Below are positions 25,559 through 56,584 of a DNA stretch of 64,000 nt, one piece after another. The stretch lies in NCBI RefSeq assembly GCF_013167455.1, contig NZ_CP038328.1, one strand, 5' to 3'. Each line of letters starts with the position of its first letter. Position 1 is the stretch's first letter. Source of the stretch: Escherichia coli O157:H7. GTDB lineage: Bacteria > Pseudomonadota > Gammaproteobacteria > Enterobacterales > Enterobacteriaceae. A model generated the notes under the pieces. The model was given only the letters and a program-made list of their open reading frames with translations, made no database searches and was not told where the DNA came from. The position numbers and the translations under genes are program-made.

Positions 25559-25660
25559 TAAAAACATTAGGTTACGGCGAAGAAGAACGGAAACGCCTTA
25601 AACCGGAAAATTTTCATAAATAGTGAAAAACCGCGAGGTCGCCGCCCCGTAACCTGTCGG
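25559..25660 (-). other. Prophage cos site (cosN 25636..25647 = GGGCGGCGACCT on the minus strand, cosB toward Nu1)
   Basis: Reverse complement matches the recalled lambda left end GGGCGGCGACCTCGCGG...TTTATGAAAATTTTCCGGTTTAAGGCGTTTCCGTTCTTCTTCG. Confidence 0.85.
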
Positions 25661-44040: not shown

Positions 44041-45500
44041 TGAAAAAATTACTGCGTCTTTTTTTCCCGCTCTCGCTGCGGGTACGTTTTCTGTTGGCAA
44101 CGGCAGCGGTAGTACTGGTGCTTTCGCTTGCCTACGGAATGGTCGCGCTGATCGGTTATAGCGTCAGTTTCGATAAAACTACGTTTCGGCTGTTACGTGG
44201 CGAGAGCAATCTGTTCTATACCCTTGCGAAGTGGGAAAACAATAAGTTGCATGTCGAGTTACCCGAAAATATCGACAAGCAAAGCCCCACCATGACGCTA
44301 ATTTATGATGAGAACGGGCAGCTTTTATGGGCGCAACGTGACGTGCCCTGGCTGATGAAGATGATCCAGCCTGACTGGCTGAAATCGAATGGTTTTCATG
44401 AAATTGAAGCGGATGTTAACGATACCAGCCTCTTGCTGAGTGGAGATCATTCGATACAGCAACAGTTGCAGGAAGTGCGGGAAGATGATGACGACGCGGA
44501 GATGACCCACTCGGTGGCGGTAAACGTCTACCCGGCAACATCGCGGATGCCAAAGTTAACCATTGTGGTGGTGGATACCATTCCGGTGGAGCTAAAAAGT
44601 TCCTATATGGTCTGGAGCTGGTTTATCTATGTGCTCTCAGCCAATCTGCTGTTAGTGATCCCGCTGCTGTGGGTCGCCGCCTGGTGGAGTTTACGCCCCA
44701 TCGAAGCCCTGGCAAAAGAAGTCCGCGAACTGGAAGAACATAACCGCGAATTGCTCAATCCAGCCACAACGCGAGAACTGACCAGTCTGGTACGAAACCT
44801 GAACCGATTGTTAAAAAGTGAACGCGAACGTTACGACAAATATCGTACAACGCTCACCGACCTGACCCATAGTCTGAAAACGCCACTGGCGGTGCTGCAA
44901 AGTACGCTGCGTTCTCTACGTAGTGAAAAGATGAGCGTCAGTGATGCTGAACCGGTAATGCTGGAGCAAATCAGCCGCATTTCACAGCAAATTGGCTACT
45001 ACCTGCATCGTGCCAGTATGCACGGCGGGACATTGCTCAGCCGCGAGCTGCATCCGGTCGCCCCACTGCTGGACAATCTCACCTCGGCGCTGAACAAAGT
45101 GTATCAACGCAAAGGGGTCAATATCTCTCTCGATATTTCGCCAGAGATCAGCTTTGTCGGTGAGCAGAACGATTTTGTCGAGGTGATGGGCAATGTACTG
45201 GATAATGCCTGTAAATATTGCCTCGAGTTTGTCGAAATTTCTGCAAGGCAAACCGACGAGCATCTCTATATTGTGGTCGAGGATGATGGCCCCGGTATTC
45301 CATTAAGCAAGCGAGAGGTCATTTTCGACCGTGGTCAACGGGTTGATACTTTACGCCCTGGGCAAGGTGTGGGGCTGGCGGTAGCCCGCGAAATCACCAA
45401 GCAATATGAGGGTAAAATCGTCGCCGGAGAGAGCATGCTTGGCGGTGCGCGGATGGAGGTGATTTTTGGTCGCCAGCATTCTACGCCGAAAGATGAATAA
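44040..45500 (+). CDS. phoQ: Sensor histidine kinase PhoQ
   Basis: 486 aa, two TM segments, HisKA/HATPase. Confidence 0.97.
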
Positions 45501-45586: not shown

Positions 45587-45607
45587 ACTACACCATTAAC
45601 TACACCG
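45587..45607 (+). repeat. Satellite att direct repeat, left copy
   Basis: Identical 21-mer to 56564..56584; flanks also similar. Confidence 0.6.
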
Positions 45608-46416: not shown

Positions 46417-46464
46417 GGGTCCTTCCTGGAATTATGGCCCGTTACGGGGCGGCGACCTCGCGGT
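46417..46464 (+). repeat. Satellite cos copy A (cosN GGGCGGCGACCT at 46448..46459), followed by a lambda-cosB-like tract to ~46637
   Basis: 48-bp inverted repeat with 47309..47356; downstream TTTATGAGAATTTTCCGG resembles the lambda left end. Confidence 0.8.
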
Positions 46465-46637: not shown

Positions 46638-47180
46638 TTACTCGCCTTTCTTCTGTAGCAACTTTTCCGGTACGTTTCCGGTTGTTTCTTTCAAGTAATC
46701 AGCCAGTATCTGTGGGAGGTTGTCGGCAACTCTGGCACTGGCATTACAGGCTTTAACCACTTCCCTTTTAAGCCTGTCCAGCATGGCGGGGGTAATCTGT
46801 GGGAAGCTCCTTTGCATAGTAAGCGGGAGGCTGTCCATGATTGATGAAATCTGACTCGCCAGCTTTGAAAGCGCGTACAGGCAAAACTCAGTATCAATCA
46901 CGTCACCGCGATCGCGATCGTTTTTAAGTTCCTGCGCCTCTGCCTGTGCTGTCAGTAATCTGATCCTGACTCGTAAAAGTTCATCATCGTCAATCTCGCC
47001 TTTGTCGTTTATAAGCTGGCTAATTGCATTGTTAACCCTATTTTCTATCACGCTGGCAACATCATAAAACGCCTCACGGCCTTTACGCTCAACGGGAGTT
47101 ACTCCCCACTTGTCGAACGCTGTCGCACTTACACGGCAGCTTTTCGCCATGTTTTTTTTGTTCATCAGATGAGATTTCAT
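46638..47180 (-). CDS. Terminase small subunit homologue (Nu1-like), satellite-encoded
   Basis: 180 aa; C-terminal region aligns with the prophage Nu1 in this window (LTAQAEAQELKNDRDRGDVIDTEFCLYALSKLASQISSIMDSLPLTMQRSFPQ vs LTRAQADAQELKNARDSAEVVETAFCTFVLSRIAGEIASILDGIPLSVQRRFPE). Confidence 0.75.
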   Translation of the reverse strand: MKSHLMNKKNMAKSCRVSATAFDKWGVTPVERKGREAFYDVASVIENRVNNAISQLINDKGEIDDDELLRVRIRLLTAQAEAQELKNDRDRGDVIDTEFCLYALSKLASQISSIMDSLPLTMQRSFPQITPAMLDRLKREVVKACNASARVADNLPQILADYLKETTGNVPEKLLQKKGE

Positions 47181-47308: not shown

Positions 47309-47356
47309 CCGCGAGGTCGCCGCCCCGTAACGGGCCATAATTCCAGGAAGGACCCG
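47309..47356 (-). repeat. Satellite cos copy B (cosN complement at 47314..47325), inverted relative to copy A
   Basis: Exact 48-bp reverse complement of 46417..46464; first 23 bp also identical to the prophage cos at 25631..25653. Confidence 0.8.
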
Positions 47357-50306: not shown

Positions 50307-50717
50307 TCAGAACGAAATATCATCACCGTAAGGGTCATCGCCTCCCGCTGGTGGCTGATTACCCTGTGTGCCTGTGGTTTTGCGTCTGTTCCCGCCTGGA
50401 CGTGCCGCGCGGGCACTGATTACGCTGTCTGCGATAACCTGCCAGCCCTGCCGCGTTTCTCCGTTCTGTCCGGTCCACTGGCTTACCTGCATCGTGCCGG
50501 ATACGCTGGCAACATCGCCTTTTTGATGTTTAGCCAGGAAGCCGGCCTGTTTGCCAAATGCGATGACCGATAACCATAACGTCGCCTGTCCGTCCTGTGC
50601 CTGGCTGCATGGCAAAGATACCGCCATACGCGCCAGCGTCATCGGTGTGCCCTTGCTGGTCTGTTTTACCTGCGGGTCGTCCACCAGCCGCCCGTAAGCG
50701 GCTATCTGTGCCGTCAT
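50307..50717 (-). CDS. ssb: Single-stranded DNA-binding protein
   Basis: 136 aa, Gly/Gln-rich linker and acidic C-terminal tail ...DDPYGDDISF. Confidence 0.75.
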   Translation of the reverse strand: MTAQIAAYGRLVDDPQVKQTSKGTPMTLARMAVSLPCSQAQDGQATLWLSVIAFGKQAGFLAKHQKGDVASVSGTMQVSQWTGQNGETRQGWQVIADSVISARAARPGGNRRKTTGTQGNQPPAGGDDPYGDDISF

Positions 50718-50995
50718 AATTCCACCTCTCCGGTTTTAACGTTGATGGTTGTTACCTGTTCCGCTTCGGCAATCTCCCGTTCTGTCAGCGTGGCAAAGTT
50801 TGCCGCCGCCGTGGTCATGAATGCGCTTATCAGGTCGGGATGTTCCTTCGCGTATCCTTCCCGCGTGTGGCGGTCTATCGTTCTGATTGCCACCTTTAAG
50901 GTGTGCTCAGTCATGTCTAACGCTTTATATTTTGGCTCTGTTCTGTCTCTGCGTTTTTGGGTCATTTCTCGCAACCTCTCACTTTTTCGCCTCAC
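50714..50995 (-). CDS. Hypothetical protein
   Basis: 93 aa ORF immediately downstream of the iteron region. Confidence 0.35.
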   Translation of the reverse strand: MRRKSERLREMTQKRRDRTEPKYKALDMTEHTLKVAIRTIDRHTREGYAKEHPDLISAFMTTAAANFATLTEREIAEAEQVTTINVKTGEVEL

Positions 50996-51167
50996 TTTTT
51001 CAAGCGTCTCACTTCGTCGCAGTTGGGATTTTCGGTTTTTCTATGTGTGTGTTTCATAAGTATTTTTTTACCCCTCACTTTTGAGGATGTATACAGGTCG
51101 AAAAGTGAGGGAGAGCGGGCTAATTTTGGCCCTCTTTCTATCCCCCTCGCTTTTGCTCCTCACTTTT
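50978..51167. repeat. Putative satellite replication origin: at least six CTCACTTTT-type iterons in both orientations
   Basis: Copies at 50978, 50991, 51008 (variant), 51074, 51101 (inverted), 51146 (variant), 51159; directly 3' of rep. Confidence 0.55.
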
Positions 51168-52566
51168 ATAGCGGCGCTACATCATCCCCATCGATACGAA
51201 TAACCCCATCTTTTTCCAGCTTGTACAGCCAGCGCCGGAAGTTTTTCATTTCATACCCCAGCTTTTTCATGTCATCACGTAACAGCGGGATCGTGCACTT
51301 GTCGCCGTTCTGTGTGCGTGAACGGATGCACCCCCATAGCGCGGTATGGTTTTCCGTCTTGTTCCCTGCCTCCTCGATGCGCTCCAGTTCAACAGGAGGG
51401 CGCGGATCATCCACCACCACCAGCGACGTGATTAATTCACCGTCAGCGTCGGTAAAAAGCTCCACCACGCGTAAGTCATATGCGGCTTCTTTGAGTTCCT
51501 CCGCGTCCTTCATTTTGGTGCATGAGATAACCAGCGCTTCGCTTCCTGCGTCCTCCCTGCGTATCCGGTATTCAGCATCCAGCGAAGCACGAAATGCACT
51601 GGAACCGCGCGCGCCTTTCGTCTCATCCTTGCCGGAATGGTGAACCACCAGCACCGTGGCCCCTGTGCGTCGTTTCAGTTCGTCACAACCACGGATAAAC
51701 GCCCCCATATCACGGGAATCATTTTCATCATTCCCACCAAAGCAACGCGCCAGCGTATCCAGAATAATCATGCGTACAGGTTTACCCGTTTCCCGCTCCA
51801 CCTGACGGGCAGCGATAACCATTTCATCAACATCAAGCGGGGCAGCCGGAAAGATGGGGCGGTTTACCAGATACAGATTTTTCACCTGCTCATCGTGCAC
51901 AACCTCCCAGGCTTTTACACGACGCGGAACACCTATACCGCCTTCACCAACCACATAGAGAACCGCACCATGTGCAACCCTGCGGCCTCCCCACTGGCGA
52001 CCAGTGGCAACATGGCACGCCCACGATCCGGCAAGGAATGATTTATAGGACCCGCTAGCCCCGTATATGCTGCATAGCGATACCGCCGGAATAATCCCCT
52101 TAACCACGTAATCCAGTTGCGTGTCGTATCCGGTAGATCCAACGCTCATCGGTAGCGTGGTTTTTCGCTGGTGGTTTTTTTCTTCCGCCGGCTCTTTCCC
52201 GCGCACCCGTTCCAGGTATTCGCGCCAGTTCTCCCGCATATGGCTGTGCATCCCTTCGGGGTAATAATTCGCATCAGTTACACCCGCCGCCGCCAGCTTG
52301 TGCGCAATGGCATTAATATTTGATGGCCTGATGTGGCCTGCCTTGTACAGCCGGACACAATAGCGCCCCTCGTCGATGATTCTCAGTTCTGCCAGTTCAT
52401 CCAGTTGATCATCAGCCAGCACAACGGGAGGCACATTATCGCCAGCCAGTCGCCCGTCCTGTTCCTGCCACTGTTTCGCATGTGCCCAGGCATCACTACC
52501 CGCAAAAATAATGACTTCGGTCATCTTGTCGTAAGGCTGTTTTTTTAAGTTCGGTGCGCTTTTCAT
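51166..52566 (-). CDS. Replication protein, RecA-fold P-loop ATPase (RepA/AAA_25-like helicase)
   Basis: 466 aa; Walker A-like GASGSYKS and Walker B-like RMIILDTLA; upstream of iterons. Confidence 0.65.
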   Translation of the reverse strand: MKSAPNLKKQPYDKMTEVIIFAGSDAWAHAKQWQEQDGRLAGDNVPPVVLADDQLDELAELRIIDEGRYCVRLYKAGHIRPSNINAIAHKLAAAGVTDANYYPEGMHSHMRENWREYLERVRGKEPAEEKNHQRKTTLPMSVGSTGYDTQLDYVVKGIIPAVSLCSIYGASGSYKSFLAGSWACHVATGRQWGGRRVAHGAVLYVVGEGGIGVPRRVKAWEVVHDEQVKNLYLVNRPIFPAAPLDVDEMVIAARQVERETGKPVRMIILDTLARCFGGNDENDSRDMGAFIRGCDELKRRTGATVLVVHHSGKDETKGARGSSAFRASLDAEYRIRREDAGSEALVISCTKMKDAEELKEAAYDLRVVELFTDADGELITSLVVVDDPRPPVELERIEEAGNKTENHTALWGCIRSRTQNGDKCTIPLLRDDMKKLGYEMKNFRRWLYKLEKDGVIRIDGDDVAPL

Positions 52567-53558: not shown

Positions 53559-53760
53559 AAAGCATCCCCTGAATATTCGTGTTAATCATTCCGGCACGTT
53601 TTGTGATTTCCTGTAATGATTCCCTTGTGGCGACAATTGCTTCATCTGGTAAGTGGTAATTACACACCACGCGACCTTTATCCACATTGACCAGTAGCTG
53701 CCCTGTGAATTTCTCACGAAACTGAATGCGGTTAAGGTCAGTAAGTGACAGATTAATCAT
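53548..53760 (-). CDS. Hypothetical protein
   Basis: 70 aa from MINLSLTDL...; RBS AGGAGG; ATGATTAA overlap with the upstream gene. Confidence 0.35.
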   Translation of the reverse strand: MINLSLTDLNRIQFREKFTGQLLVNVDKGRVVCNYHLPDEAIVATRESLQEITKRAGMINTNIQGMLYAQ

Positions 53761-53950
53761 GGCGCACCTCCTGACGAATACGGGCGGCAAATACAGCAAC
53801 ACAACCGGACGGGCAACGGTTACGCGCTTCGCGTTCCGTCCAGGCGGTTACGTGGATGATTTGAGATTCTCCGGCACTCAGTGCCAGAAAACGCCACACA
53901 AAGGCCGTTTGTGTGTGTACAAGGTGTGGTATATGATTTACGGCAACCAT
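53753..53950 (-). CDS. Hypothetical protein, first gene of the satellite leftward operon
   Basis: 65 aa from MVAVNHIPHL...; RBS GGAG 5 nt upstream. Confidence 0.35.
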   Translation of the reverse strand: MVAVNHIPHLVHTQTAFVWRFLALSAGESQIIHVTAWTEREARNRCPSGCVAVFAARIRQEVRHD

Positions 53951-54040
53951 AACGGCTCCTAGTTTACGTTGTTGGTTAGACGCCCCGTATGTGTTCCCAG
54001 CACTGCGGGGCGTTGATTTTTGTGTAATGGCAAGTACAAT

Positions 54041-54080
54041 GGTAATTACCATGTAGGTATAGCAATAAAGGGTAATTACC
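54041..54080. promoter_or_regulatory. Two perfect 10-bp palindromes GGTAATTACC, 30 bp apart, in the divergent control region
   Basis: Copies at 54041..54050 and 54071..54080, each followed by ATGT; the second abuts the RHH start codon. Confidence 0.5.
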
Positions 54081-54254
54081 ATGTCAACACCATTAGAAAA
54101 ACGTTCGCCTCCATACCAAATGCGATTACCGGAAGACTTCAGAGCGCAGCTAGAAGAAGCTGCTAAGGCCGATGGCGACACATCTTTAGCCACTTGGATT
54201 AAACGCGTTCTCCGCAAAGAATTACAGCAACGCGGCATAGAACCCAAAGGATAA
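54081..54254 (+). CDS. Ribbon-helix-helix (Arc/MetJ-like) DNA-binding protein
   Basis: 57 aa by manual translation (MSTPLEKRSPPYQMRLPEDFRAQLEEAAKADGDTSLATWIKRVLRKELQQRGIEPKG); below the ORF-track cutoff. Confidence 0.5.
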   Translation: MSTPLEKRSPPYQMRLPEDFRAQLEEAAKADGDTSLATWIKRVLRKELQQRGIEPKG

Positions 54255-54296
54255 AAACTATCAGCGCCGTGGTGTGAGGTATTACGGCGCATTGCT

Positions 54297-54485
54297 ATGC
54301 AGGACAACACAATGACCGATAAAGAATTGACCAAAACATTATCACCGGCACGGAAAAGACGGCGCAGAAAGATAGAGCATGAATCAGAAAGATTCGCGCC
54401 ATGTGCTTTTGCCCTTGAGCAATTCCTTAAAGAGTACAGGGAAACGCGCCCATTGCAGGTATGGCAACGAACTGAACCAGACTGA
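54297..54485 (+). CDS. Hypothetical small basic protein
   Basis: 62 aa with KRRRRK; downstream of the RHH gene, before the + strand terminator. Confidence 0.3.
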   Translation: MQDNTMTDKELTKTLSPARKRRRRKIEHESERFAPCAFALEQFLKEYRETRPLQVWQRTEPD

Positions 54486-54578
54486 TAGCATTGCCCACCA
54501 GCCTGATAGCGGCTATCATCCCCGTGCTTATGTTTGGGATCATATACACATAAGGCGCAGCGGGTTATCTGTTCAGAA

Positions 54579-54608
54579 AGGCGGCTCCATTTCGGGGCCG
54601 CTTTTTTT
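54579..54608 (+). terminator. Intrinsic terminator closing the RHH transcription unit
   Basis: GCGGCTCC-ATTTC-GGGGCCGC followed by T7. Confidence 0.5.
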
Positions 54609-54754
54609 ATGCCTGAAAAACCCCAATTTTGTGGTTTTCCAGTCTCACCAGGGCGAACGAATCCCCGCCCACGTTCTGGCGTATATTCAATCTTCATGGT
54701 TATAGCTCTGTGTTCAGATGATTGATGTGTGGCGGCTGTGTGCCGCCAGCGTGA

Positions 54755-54943
54755 TTAATGAACTGCCTTGCAGCTATCCTTCCAGGCCAGAACCTCGGAT
54801 AAAGACCAGCCAACGGAACGACCGCCAAGTTTACGACGTGATGGGAATTGTCCGGCCTTTTCCAGGCGGTAGCGACACGTACGGCTAAGGCCGGTTAGTT
54901 TTTCGCATTCTTTTTCACGTATAAACCGATCAGTGCTTAACAC
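54755..54943 (-). CDS. alpA: AlpA-family transcriptional regulator (excisionase-like)
   Basis: 62 aa; pattern ...LTGLSRTCRYRLEKAGQFP...GGRSVGWSLSEVLAW typical of AlpA. Confidence 0.75.
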   Translation of the reverse strand: MLSTDRFIREKECEKLTGLSRTCRYRLEKAGQFPSRRKLGGRSVGWSLSEVLAWKDSCKAVH

Positions 54944-55307: not shown

Positions 55308-56558
55308 TTATTTTCTTCTGGCTACTGGTAGCGTGGTTACGTTTTCATGTGTTCCCGCCAGTATCCCTAACCGCTCCGTCCACATATCCAGCGCATTGCG
55401 TTTCGCATCCAGATAACGGGAATGATTATAAACTCGCTGCATTCCTGGCATCTGGTGGCCTGTAAGCTGCTCCACGACATGCGGATCAACGCCTAAATCG
55501 TTCAGCATGGTTGTAAAGGTGCGCCGGATGTCATGCAGTGACCAGTGAGGGTGATTAAGCCTCCTGTGCGCTAATCTTCCATACTGCGATACGCTGGCCT
55601 CCTGTTTCACTTCCCCCAGCAATAAGCCCGTGTGCCTGTTCTGCTCCACCAGCTGCGTGATGAACGGCAGTATTGCTTCCGGTATAGGCCGGAATATGGC
55701 TACCTTCGTTTTGCTGTGCTCCTTCGGAACGGTCCAGAGCATTTCGGTAAAATCCCACTCGCTGATCTCCGATAACCTCAGTTCTACCGTCCGGCATCCG
55801 AACACAATCAGGAGGCGGATTAACGCGATGTAGTAGGGGGAGAATATTTTTTTGTCCAGTGCCTGCAATAATTCGCCCAGTTCTTTGGTGCTTAAGACAC
55901 GCTCGCTTATATCCGGTTTTTTCCCAACGTCCGCCACACTCATATCATCAAGAACGTTGCTGATTGCATAGCGCCGCCTCCGGCAGAACTTAAGCGCCTG
56001 TTTGCACGTCTGTAGCAAGAATCCGGCAGTAACAGGCGTTCGCTTTGCCACCTGGTCAAAACAGGCCAGCCAGTGCCGTAGCTCGCATTTATCCAGCGGC
56101 ATAGCACCAATGTGCTGTATTACGTGATTATTAAGGCGCTTTTTCAGGGCGGCATAATCCACGCGGTTTTCCTTTGCGTACGACTCAAGCCAGTAGGTGA
56201 GCGCATCGCCAACCGTTACCGGCTTTAACGCTTCCTGTACGGTGTAATTAAGCTCATGACGTGGATTTTTCCCCTCTGCCAGCCATGCGCGACACTGGGC
56301 GGCTTTTTCCCTGGCTGATTTCAGGCTCAGATCAGGATAATTTCCCAGCTTAATGCGTTCCGGTGGTGCCCCCCTTCCCGTTCCGGCCCTGTAAGTGAAA
56401 TACCAGGTTAAAAGGCCACTGGTTGAATGCCTGACGCTCAGGTTTCCACCGTCATTAAGAAAGGCTGTTTTTTGGGCGGGTGTGCCGTTGATTTTCCTCA
56501 GCTGTGTATCGCTCAGTTTGTTAAGTGCTCTGCTCATAATTTTGATTCCGGTCATCAC
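55308..56558 (-). CDS. int: Tyrosine integrase (P4/satellite-type)
   Basis: 416 aa; C-terminal catalytic residues; adjacent to the right att repeat. Confidence 0.9.
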   Translation of the reverse strand: MMTGIKIMSRALNKLSDTQLRKINGTPAQKTAFLNDGGNLSVRHSTSGLLTWYFTYRAGTGRGAPPERIKLGNYPDLSLKSAREKAAQCRAWLAEGKNPRHELNYTVQEALKPVTVGDALTYWLESYAKENRVDYAALKKRLNNHVIQHIGAMPLDKCELRHWLACFDQVAKRTPVTAGFLLQTCKQALKFCRRRRYAISNVLDDMSVADVGKKPDISERVLSTKELGELLQALDKKIFSPYYIALIRLLIVFGCRTVELRLSEISEWDFTEMLWTVPKEHSKTKVAIFRPIPEAILPFITQLVEQNRHTGLLLGEVKQEASVSQYGRLAHRRLNHPHWSLHDIRRTFTTMLNDLGVDPHVVEQLTGHQMPGMQRVYNHSRYLDAKRNALDMWTERLGILAGTHENVTTLPVARRK

Positions 56559-56563
56559 AATTA

Positions 56564-56584
56564 ACTACACCATTAACTACACCG
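56564..56584 (+). repeat. Satellite att direct repeat, right copy (preceded by a tandem ATTAACTACACC unit)
   Basis: Identical 21-mer to 45587..45607. Confidence 0.6.

What the first reader, a model, noticed from the sequence alone, without database searches (positions are those of the whole stretch)
50978..51167. Putative satellite origin: CTCACTTTT iterons immediately 3' of rep
At least six copies of CTCACTTTT (two variants, one inverted) lie in ~190 bp directly after the Rep ATPase gene, in an A/T-rich context, the usual layout of an iteron origin beside its initiator.
Basis: partly seen in the sequence, partly recalled or inferred. Interest (0 to 1): 0.45.

Follow-up and report, generated by a model that had tools for sequence, protein, structure and literature searches.

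The report
Replication origin of a phage satellite
The repeated CTCACTTTT motifs just after the rep gene are very probably the replication origin of a known 11-kb E. coli phage satellite (EcCIRM12579), which is the expected layout for such islands; the new part is that one amino acid of the Rep protein appears to decide which version of the repeat it reads.

Summary
There are five exact CTCACTTTT copies (four on the + strand, one inverted) and two degenerate ones in 50978-51167. They fill the gap between the stop codon of a RepA-family helicase gene (51166-52566, minus strand) and the next gene. No simulated window held more than one copy in such a span.

The island is 99.9% identical to EcCIRM12579, a phage-inducible chromosomal island (PICI) catalogued by Fillol-Salom et al. 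2018. That paper places PICI origins 3' of rep, as two iteron sets flanking an AT-rich tract.

In more than 90 related loci the iterons keep the same positions while the spacers diverge.

The iteron's second base co-varies without exception with Rep residue 442:
- Asn goes with CTCAC.
- His or Lys goes with CCCAC.
- Gly or Ser goes with CGCAC.

Residue 442 sits at the start of the recognition helix of a confidently predicted C-terminal winged-helix domain.

No DnaA box, promoter or terminator lies in the region, and the cos site is elsewhere. Replication itself was not tested, and this Rep class has no published functional test that I could find.

This is a known kind of feature, so interest is low to moderate. 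The apparent one-residue, one-base specificity code is the only new element.

The parts
50966..51168 (.). Whole putative ori: the intergenic region between the ATG of the 83-aa gene and the rep stop codon
   Evidence: The layout is conserved in about 90 related loci.
50978..50986 (+). Iteron L1, CTCACTTTT (exact). Its complement also supplies the GAGG Shine-Dalgarno-like sequence of the downstream gene.
   Evidence: Conserved at about 192 nt from the rep stop in relatives.
50991..50999 (+). Iteron L2, CTCACTTTT (exact), 13 bp after L1
51007..51015 (+). Iteron L3, the degenerate copy CTCACTTCG
   Evidence: family D2. Conserved at about 162 nt from the rep stop.
51030..51072 (.). AT-rich, least stable duplex tract (70-77% A+T); candidate unwinding element
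   Evidence: nearest-neighbour free energy, 92nd-98th percentile of the window
51074..51082 (+). Iteron C1, left arm of the central inverted pair (CCCTCACTTTT)
   Evidence: inverted repeat I2: 11-nt arms, 100% complementary, 18 nt apart
51083..51100 (.). 18-bp centre between the inverted iterons, containing GTATAC. A (T)ATATAC core is kept in all iteron classes and genera.
51101..51109 (-). Iteron C2, the inverted copy
   Evidence: The single-strand hairpin with C1 is -9.7 kcal/mol, z -4 to -5.6.
51146..51154 (+). Iteron R1, the variant CTCGCTTTT
   Evidence: Conserved at 24 nt from the rep stop.
51159..51167 (+). Iteron R2, CTCACTTTT (exact), overlapping the rep stop codon by 2 nt
51166..52566 (-). 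rep: 466-aa RepA-family helicase, the proposed initiator. Pfam AAA_25 covers residues 148-315. It has an N-terminal 125-aa alpha/beta domain and a C-terminal winged helix.
51169..51381 (-). Codons 396-466 of rep: the winged-helix DNA-binding domain, with the recognition helix at residues 443-452
51241..51243 (-). Codon 442 (AAC, Asn): the candidate specificity residue that reads base pair 2 of the iteron
   Evidence: Extended to other genera and families.
50714..50965 (-). Downstream 83-aa gene (phrog_1231, function unknown), conserved next to the ori
50307..50717 (-). Island-encoded single-stranded-DNA-binding protein, a likely accessory to replication

Best explanation
The repeat cluster is the origin of replication of an AlpA-type phage-inducible chromosomal island (EcCIRM12579 type). 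When a helper phage induces the island, Rep is made. Rep has three parts: a 125-aa N-terminal domain, a RepA-like RecA-fold hexameric helicase, and a C-terminal winged helix. The winged helix binds the 9-10 bp iterons (C)CTCACTTTT, and residue Asn442 at the start of the recognition helix reads the second base pair. Rep occupies a tandem pair at each end of the ori (13-bp spacing) and a central inverted pair. The DNA then opens at the AT-rich tract and/or at the GTATAC centre, the helicase loads itself without DnaA, and the island's own SSB coats the strands. Replication produces concatemers that are packaged from the island's cos site.

Shown here: the sequence anatomy, its conservation, the domain architecture and the residue-base covariation.

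Inferred by analogy with SaPI and EcCICFT073: Rep binding, melting, self-loading and dependence on induction.
For: 1. The cluster is non-random and sits exactly between the rep stop codon and the next gene.

2. The island is a PICI. It is 99.9% identical to EcCIRM12579 and is bounded by the published att core. For this family, PMC6092414 places the ori 3' of rep, with two iteron sets around an AT-rich tract, and showed rep-ori-dependent plasmid maintenance for EcCICFT073.

3. In 57 distinct Rep C-terminus/ori combinations from 82 loci, the iterons stay at about 11, 24, 61(-), 96, 162, 179 and 192 nt from the rep stop. The spacers diverge.

4. Iteron base 2 switches in all copies together and matches Rep residue 442. 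Asn goes with T in 28 combinations and His goes with C in 29, with no exceptions.

5. Residue 442 is the only one of 466 Rep columns that predicts the iteron class perfectly. The next best column reaches 79%. Residues 443-466, which lie closer to the ori, reach at most 75%. The best column of the flanking 83-aa protein reaches 93%.

6. The Asn/His state needs 6-10 changes on Rep trees.

7. The rule extends to other lineages. Gly or Ser goes with CGCAC in Enterobacter and Klebsiella. In distant primase-helicase fusions carrying the same C-terminal domain, Asn goes with CTCAC, and His and Lys go with CCCAC.

8. The C-terminal domain is a confident winged helix, and residue 442 caps its recognition helix. 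The best structural matches are Orc/Cdc6 and MCM winged-helix domains.

9. SaPI Reps use a C-terminal winged helix to recognise iterons placed 3' of rep (PMC9371898).

10. The island encodes an SSB two genes downstream.
Against: - There is no experimental evidence for this Rep class. The only tested Gram-negative PICI replicon, EcCICFT073, has a different helicase body and different iterons, GGTAGAYAG.
- Most iterons point the same way, whereas SaPI oris are described as having opposed sets.
- The AT-rich tract is modest: 43 bp at about 75% A+T.
- Codon 442 is only about 75 bp from the ori, and the C-terminus plus ori is exchanged by recombination as one cassette. Part of the covariation therefore reflects linkage, and the Fisher p-value of 7e-17 is not corrected for phylogeny.
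- The priming mechanism is unknown, because no recognisable primase domain was found in this Rep.
Confidence: 0.85

Rival explanations
1. The repeats are primarily transcriptional operator sites. They would be bound by Rep, or by another island regulator, to control the downstream ssb-perC-capsid operon or rep itself, rather than acting as an origin.
For: The central 11-bp inverted pair with an 18-bp spacer looks like an operator. The leftmost iterons overlap the ribosome-binding region of the next gene. Iteron-binding initiators of plasmids commonly autoregulate (general knowledge).
Against: No sigma-70-like promoter was found on either strand in 50700-51400, and no sense-strand terminator either. 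Seven sites spread over 190 bp around an AT-rich tract and abutting the initiator's stop codon fit the origin layout documented for PICIs (PMC6092414, PMC9371898). A regulatory side-role is not excluded and could coexist with origin function.
Confidence: 0.07
2. The repeats are bound by a protein other than Rep, for example the conserved 83-aa product of the adjacent gene or a helper-phage or host factor. Rep would then act only as a helicase.
For: The 83-aa gene (phrog_1231, function unknown) is always adjacent. Its residue 5 predicts the iteron class in 93% of combinations.
Against: Only Rep residue 442 predicts the class perfectly, and it lies on the recognition helix of a winged-helix domain. 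Distant relatives that lack the 83-aa gene (L096-L099, L090-L093) keep both the iterons and the residue-base rule.
Confidence: 0.04
3. The cluster is a packaging (cos/pac) signal, or a decayed and non-functional repeat remnant.
For: Terminase small subunits also bind repeated sites. The island encodes a TerS. One relative (L055) has lost the central ori by recombination between the left and right iteron pairs.
Against: An exact lambda-type cosN with conserved flanks lies elsewhere, at 47314-47325 upstream of terS. The iterons are conserved in position and co-evolve with Rep across genera, which is not expected of a remnant.
Confidence: 0.02

Closest known systems
Gram-negative PICI replication origins (EcCICFT073 rep-ori; Fillol-Salom et al. 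2018, PMC6092414)
   Same: The element family, att site (roxA/ycfD-phoQ) and flanking genes are the same: DUF4222 upstream, then a small ORF, ssb and perC downstream. The ori lies immediately 3' of rep, with iteron sets around an AT-rich tract. The window's island is 99.9% identical to EcCIRM12579, which is listed in that paper's Table S1.
   Different: EcCICFT073 Rep is a 584-aa primase-family protein that shares only the first 125 aa with this Rep (62% identity). Its iterons are GGTAGAYAG, and its ori contains a near-consensus DnaA box, TTATCCACT. Here Rep is a RepA/AAA_25 helicase, the iterons are CTCACTTTT, and there is no DnaA box. Only EcCICFT073 has been tested functionally.
SaPI replication origins and Rep initiator-helicases (Ubeda et al.; Qiao et al. 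2022, PMC9371898)
   Same: The ori abuts the 3' end of rep. Short iterons are split around an AT-rich centre. Rep is a self-loading helicase whose C-terminal winged helix recognises the iterons. The proposed mechanism is loading of two hexamers on either side of the melted region.
   Different: SaPI Reps have SF3/MCM-like or SF6 motors, with a separate or fused primase, and their iterons are 5-6 bp long and opposed across the AT tract. Here the motor is RepA-like (RecA fold, AAA_25), the iterons are 9-10 bp, most point the same way with one central inverted pair, and no primase domain was detected. There is no sequence homology.
IncQ plasmid RSF1010 replication system (RepA helicase, RepC iteron-binding initiator, RepB primase)
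   Same: RSF1010 RepA is the only solved structure detectable by sequence (1g8y, E=0.0055, residues 150-321). It defines the same helicase family. Replication is driven by iterons.
   Different: In RSF1010, origin recognition (RepC, 20-bp iterons) and unwinding (RepA) are separate proteins. Here a winged-helix origin-binding domain is fused to the helicase, and the iterons are short.
Classical iteron plasmids (pSC101, R6K, P1, F; Rep_3/RepA-type initiators)
   Same: Repeated initiator-binding sites lie next to an AT-rich unwinding element, beside the initiator gene. DNA recognition is by a winged helix.
   Different: Those iterons are 17-22 bp long and helically phased. The initiator has no helicase activity, and DnaA boxes and DnaB/DnaC loading are required. 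None of these features is seen here.

Membership tests
PICI/SaPI-type rep-ori module | The ori lies immediately 3' of the replication initiator gene | tested here: met
   The iteron array spans 50978-51167 and the rep stop codon is 51166-51168.
PICI/SaPI-type rep-ori module | Multiple short iterons in two sets flanking an AT-rich tract | tested here: met
   The left set is L1-L3, the AT-rich tract is 51030-51072, and C1, C2, R1 and R2 lie on the other side. The layout is conserved in relatives.
PICI/SaPI-type rep-ori module | The initiator is a helicase with a C-terminal winged-helix domain that sets iteron specificity | tested here: met
PICI/SaPI-type rep-ori module | The rep-ori fragment drives autonomous, Rep-dependent replication | not testable with these tools
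   This needs cloning into a conditional vector. It has been published only for EcCICFT073, which has a different Rep and different iterons (PMC6092414).
Gram-negative PICI (AlpA type) | About 8-15 kb island with flanking att repeats, integrase, alpA, unidirectional genes, a replication module, packaging-interference genes, and no lysis or tail genes | tested here: met
   att core GGACATATTT at 45499 and 56709. Also int, an AlpA-like gene, rep, ssb, perC, capsid, decoration and terS, all on the minus strand. 99.9% identical to EcCIRM12579.
EcCICFT073-type ori (the experimentally tested one) | The same iteron sequence and a homologous DNA-binding part of Rep | tested here: not met
   The iterons are GGTAGAYAG against CTCACTTTT here. 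The Reps align only over residues 1-125.
Classical plasmid iteron origin (Rep_3/RepA class) | 17-22 bp phased iterons, DnaA box(es), and an initiator without helicase activity | tested here: not met
   The iterons are 9-10 bp with 13-bp spacing. There is no DnaA box within one mismatch in 50966-51168. Rep carries an AAA_25 helicase domain.
Lambda-type cos packaging site | cosN sequence GGGCGGCGACCT with flanking terminase-binding sites | tested here: not met
   cosN is at 47314-47325 and 46447-46458, not in the iteron region.

The most novel reading that the evidence does not exclude
A single residue at the N-terminal cap of the winged-helix recognition helix of Rep (position 442) sets origin specificity by reading base pair 2 of the iteron. 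Asn goes with T:A, His or Lys with C:G, and Gly or Ser with G:C. The rule holds from E. coli PICIs to distant primase-helicase fusions in other integrative elements. If true, satellites switch replicon specificity by exchanging a cassette of about 340 bp, from codon 442 through the ori. That would create cross-reacting or orthogonal replicons among islands that share one cell or one att site. Such a one-residue, one-base code would be simple to re-engineer.
Probability: 0.6. Interest if true: 0.5.

Novelty: already known. Interest (0 to 1): 0.3.

Why it matters
As stated, the finding re-identifies the expected origin of a catalogued phage satellite, so it adds little by itself. It does pin down the exact ori anatomy for the RepA-helicase class of E. 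coli PICIs. Relatives of this rep-ori region are present in about 11% of complete E. coli genomes (604 of 5426), and this class has not been tested functionally as far as I could find.

The comparative analysis also yields a precise, cheap experiment: N442H swaps tested against CTCAC and CCCAC oris. That experiment addresses how satellite initiators recognise their origins, and whether co-resident islands can cross-activate or exclude each other's replication.

Tried and rejected
- **DnaA boxes:** none within one mismatch in the ori, so a DnaA-dependent plasmid-type origin was rejected.
- **Promoter and terminator scan of 50700-51400:** no promoter was found. The only hairpin is weak and on the wrong strand. 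The central inverted pair is followed by an A-run, not a T-run, on the sense strand, so it is not a rep terminator.
- **Rfam scan of the island:** no hit. No tRNA at the island ends.
- **cos/pac reading:** rejected, because exact cosN sites lie near terS.
- **PDB sequence search with Rep:** only a marginal hit to RSF1010 RepA.
- **Full-length AF2 model:** poor for parts of the helicase core (mean pLDDT 65), so only the N- and C-terminal domains were interpreted.
- **Plasmid search for an autonomous replicon using this Rep:** the full-length hits are large records that look like chromosomal pieces. A 17-kb Klebsiella 'plasmid' carries an integrase and a tail gene. None of these is clean evidence of autonomous replication.
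- **Phage collection:** no full-length homologue.
- **Initial identification as EcCIEDL933/Sp7:** this was wrong. That cf-PICI occupies the same att site in Sakai and EDL933 but has a different Rep and different iterons, TAACCCGCA.
- **Literature search for the iteron sequence together with 'iteron':** nothing found. Fig. 2a of PMC6092414, which may draw this ori, could not be read.

Full report
**Observation**

The region 50978-51167 holds CTCACTTTT exactly at 50978, 50991, 51074 and 51159 on the + strand, and at 51101-51109 on the - strand. CTCGCTTTT lies at 51146 and CTCACTTCG at 51007. Only two other exact copies occur in the 64-kb window. In 300 Markov simulations no 190-bp span held more than one copy.

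All island genes here are on the minus strand. The array begins 13 bp upstream of the ATG (50965) of an 83-aa gene. It ends two bases inside the stop codon (51166-51168) of a 466-aa ORF.

The region as a whole is only mildly A+T-rich, at 42-46% G+C. A 43-bp tract at 51030-51072 is 70-77% A+T and is the least stable duplex locally.

**Context**

The 466-aa protein is a RepA-family helicase. Pfam AAA_25 covers residues 148-315 with E=5e-43, it matches phrog_2850 over its full length, and RefSeq names it 'helicase RepA family protein'.

The element it belongs to has the following parts:
- a tyrosine integrase (55308-56558);
- an AlpA-like excisionase/regulator (54755-54943);
- a DUF4222 gene, then rep, then the repeats;
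- an 83-aa gene, an SSB and a PerC-family regulator;
- lambda-E-like capsid and D-like decoration genes;
- a lambda-type cos site and a Nu1-like TerS.

The island lies between phoQ and roxA (ycfD) and is bounded by the 10-bp repeat GGACATATTT at 45499 and 56709. That repeat and that site are the ones published for EcCICFT073 and EcCIRM12579 (Table S1 of PMC6092414).

The window's island is 99.9% identical over 11.0 kb to EcCIRM12579 of E. coli O55:H7 RM12579. There is one base difference in the ori (50971) and one substitution in Rep, E60D. So this is a catalogued phage-inducible chromosomal island.

My first guess, EcCIEDL933/Sp7, was wrong. That cf-PICI occupies the same site in Sakai but carries another Rep and other iterons.

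**What is known**

Fillol-Salom et al. 2018 state that in Gram-negative PICIs the region immediately 3' of the replication initiator gene is the origin. [quoted passage not shown] They also showed that EcCICFT073 rep plus ori maintains a thermosensitive plasmid, and that mutating rep abolished this while deleting ori significantly reduced it (PMC6092414).

For SaPIs, Rep is a self-loading helicase. Its C-terminal winged-helix domain recognises 5-6 bp iterons immediately downstream of rep, and about half of these lie on each side of an AT-rich centre (PMC9371898).

EcCICFT073 is not the same replicon as the one here. Its Rep is a 584-aa primase-family protein that shares only residues 1-125 with this Rep (62% identity). 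Its iterons are GGTAGAYAG, and its ori has a near-consensus DnaA box.

**Comparative evidence**

The ori region has relatives in 604 of 5426 complete E. coli genomes. I collected 7 diverged genomic loci and 80 IMG/VR loci.

In 57 distinct Rep C-terminus/ori combinations, the iterons sit at nearly fixed distances from the rep stop: about 11 and 24 (a tandem pair), 61(-) and 96(+) (an inverted pair), and 162, 179 and 192. The intervening spacers diverge.

The iteron core comes in two forms, CTCACTTTT and CCCACTTTT. Within a locus nearly all copies share one form. The exceptions are two recombinant oris whose outermost iteron is of the other class.

The form matches Rep residue 442 without exception. 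Asn goes with T in 28 combinations (44 loci), and His goes with C in 29 combinations (38 loci). Four further loci whose Rep is only 63% identical also follow the rule.

An association scan over every Rep column shows that residue 442 is the only perfect predictor of iteron class:

| Protein columns scanned | Best prediction of iteron class |
|---|---|
| Rep residue 442 | 100% |
| Next best Rep column | 79% |
| Rep residues 443-466 (closer to the ori) | at most 75% |
| Adjacent 83-aa protein, best column | 93% |

(All.)

On neighbour-joining trees of Rep, the Asn/His state needs 6-10 changes. Pairs of Reps that differ at 442 and at only one or two other residues carry different ori classes. Their spacers also differ, so the switch happens by recombination of a cassette running from codon 442 through the ori, not by parallel point mutations. 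Linkage therefore contributes to the association. It cannot explain why the residues between codon 442 and the ori are less well associated than 442 itself.

**Extension of the rule to other lineages**

| Residue at position 442 | Iteron core | Loci |
|---|---|---|
| Asn | CTCAC | E. coli family; L096 (CCTCACTTTT); L097 (CTCA repeats) |
| His | CCCAC | E. coli family; L086-L089; L098 |
| Lys | CCCAC | L099 |
| Gly or Ser | CGCA(C/T)TT | Enterobacter L090, L092, L093; Klebsiella L095 |

The Enterobacter and Klebsiella relatives (Rep about 60% identical) keep the same architecture. A tandem set abuts the rep stop, and an inverted pair surrounds (T)ATATAC.

A profile of the C-terminal domain finds only 74 cluster representatives among 1.84 billion proteins. 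Many sit at the C-terminus of Zn-ribbon-primase/Toprim/AAA_25 fusions. L096-L099 are four such loci, and they follow the rule.

The pattern agrees with the general preference of Asn for adenine and of His and Lys for guanine in protein-DNA contacts (my own knowledge, not tested here).

**Structure**

The N-terminal 125 residues fold as an alpha/beta domain (pLDDT 76-91). The otherwise unrelated Reps of EcCICFT073 and Sp7 share this domain at 62-67% identity. The exchangeable unit is therefore the helicase body, the C-terminal domain and the ori.

**Mechanism proposed**

1. Rep is expressed after helper induction (inferred from the family).
2. Rep binds the iterons through its winged helix (inferred from covariation and fold).
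3. Binding at two terminal tandem pairs and a central inverted pair assembles helicase rings on either side of the AT-rich tract (by analogy with SaPI Rep).
4. Melting occurs at 51030-51072 and/or at the class-independent GTATAC centre between the inverted iterons.
5. The helicase self-loads without DnaA, since the ori has no DnaA box.
6. The island's SSB stabilises the open strands.

How priming occurs is unknown.

**Rivals**

- **An operator-only role:** this is unlikely, because no promoter is detected. A secondary regulatory role remains possible.
- **Binding by the adjacent 83-aa protein:** this is disfavoured by the association scan, and by distant loci that lack that gene but keep the rule.
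- **A packaging signal:** this is excluded, because the lambda-type cos lies at 47314-47325.

**Verdict**

The feature belongs to a known kind and lies in a catalogued island, so it is essentially already known, although this Rep/iteron class has no published functional test that I could find. The apparent one-residue, one-base specificity code is the only new and testable element.

Noticed in passing
window 47314-47325 (-), 46447-46458 (+), 25636-25647 (-): The island carries two lambda-type cos sites, each an exact cosN GGGCGGCGACCT with about 65 bp of conserved flank. They are in inverted orientation on either side of terS (46638-47180). A third exact cosN belongs to a lambdoid prophage elsewhere in the window.
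   Followed up: partly
window 52192-52566 (-) (Rep residues 1-125); L009 2242-3996; L094 6601-8733: Three different PICIs occupy the same roxA-phoQ att site: this island, EcCICFT073, and Sakai Sp7/EcCIEDL933. They have unrelated Rep bodies and different iterons (CTCACTTTT, GGTAGAYAG, TAACCCGCA) but share the first 125 aa of Rep at 62-67% identity, as well as the flanking genes. This implies cassette exchange of the helicase body, C-terminal domain and ori.
   Followed up: partly
L055 (IMG/VR UViG_2541047774_000008), ori downstream of rep: This is a natural deletion variant. The ori has collapsed to a single tandem iterons pair, apparently by recombination between the left and right 44-nt direct repeats. 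In the window these repeats are 168 bp apart (family D1).
   Followed up: no
L043, L045, L046 ori regions: These oris are mosaics. The outermost left iteron is CCCAC in an otherwise CTCAC ori paired with an Asn442 Rep. This marks a recombination joint inside the left iteron set.
   Followed up: no
window 45587-45607 and 56564-56584: A 21-bp direct repeat, ACTACACCATTAACTACACCG, lies just inside both island ends, in addition to the published 10-bp att core. Its reverse complement matches the att core listed for another PICI, EcCIDI14, in Table S1 of PMC6092414. It may be an integrase-binding repeat or an alternative att.
   Followed up: no
L009 4152-4170 (EcCICFT073 ori): The experimentally tested EcCICFT073 ori contains a near-consensus DnaA box, TTATCCACT, embedded among its iterons. 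The ori studied here has none. This suggests the two replicons depend on the host differently.
   Followed up: no
window 53753-54697 (-): This is a long spurious-looking 314-aa ORF. It overlaps a region that RefSeq annotates as a truncated Icd-like cell-division-inhibitor pseudogene. An intact small Icd-like gene lies next to it.
   Followed up: no
IMG/VR loci sharing a genome identifier (for example L034+L074, L076+L077, L066+L069): Some genomes carry two or three islands with this Rep family. Pairs can be of the same iteron class (Asn+Asn, His+His) or mixed (His+Asn). Co-resident islands are therefore not always orthogonal in ori specificity. Whether these are truly single genomes was not checked.
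   Followed up: no
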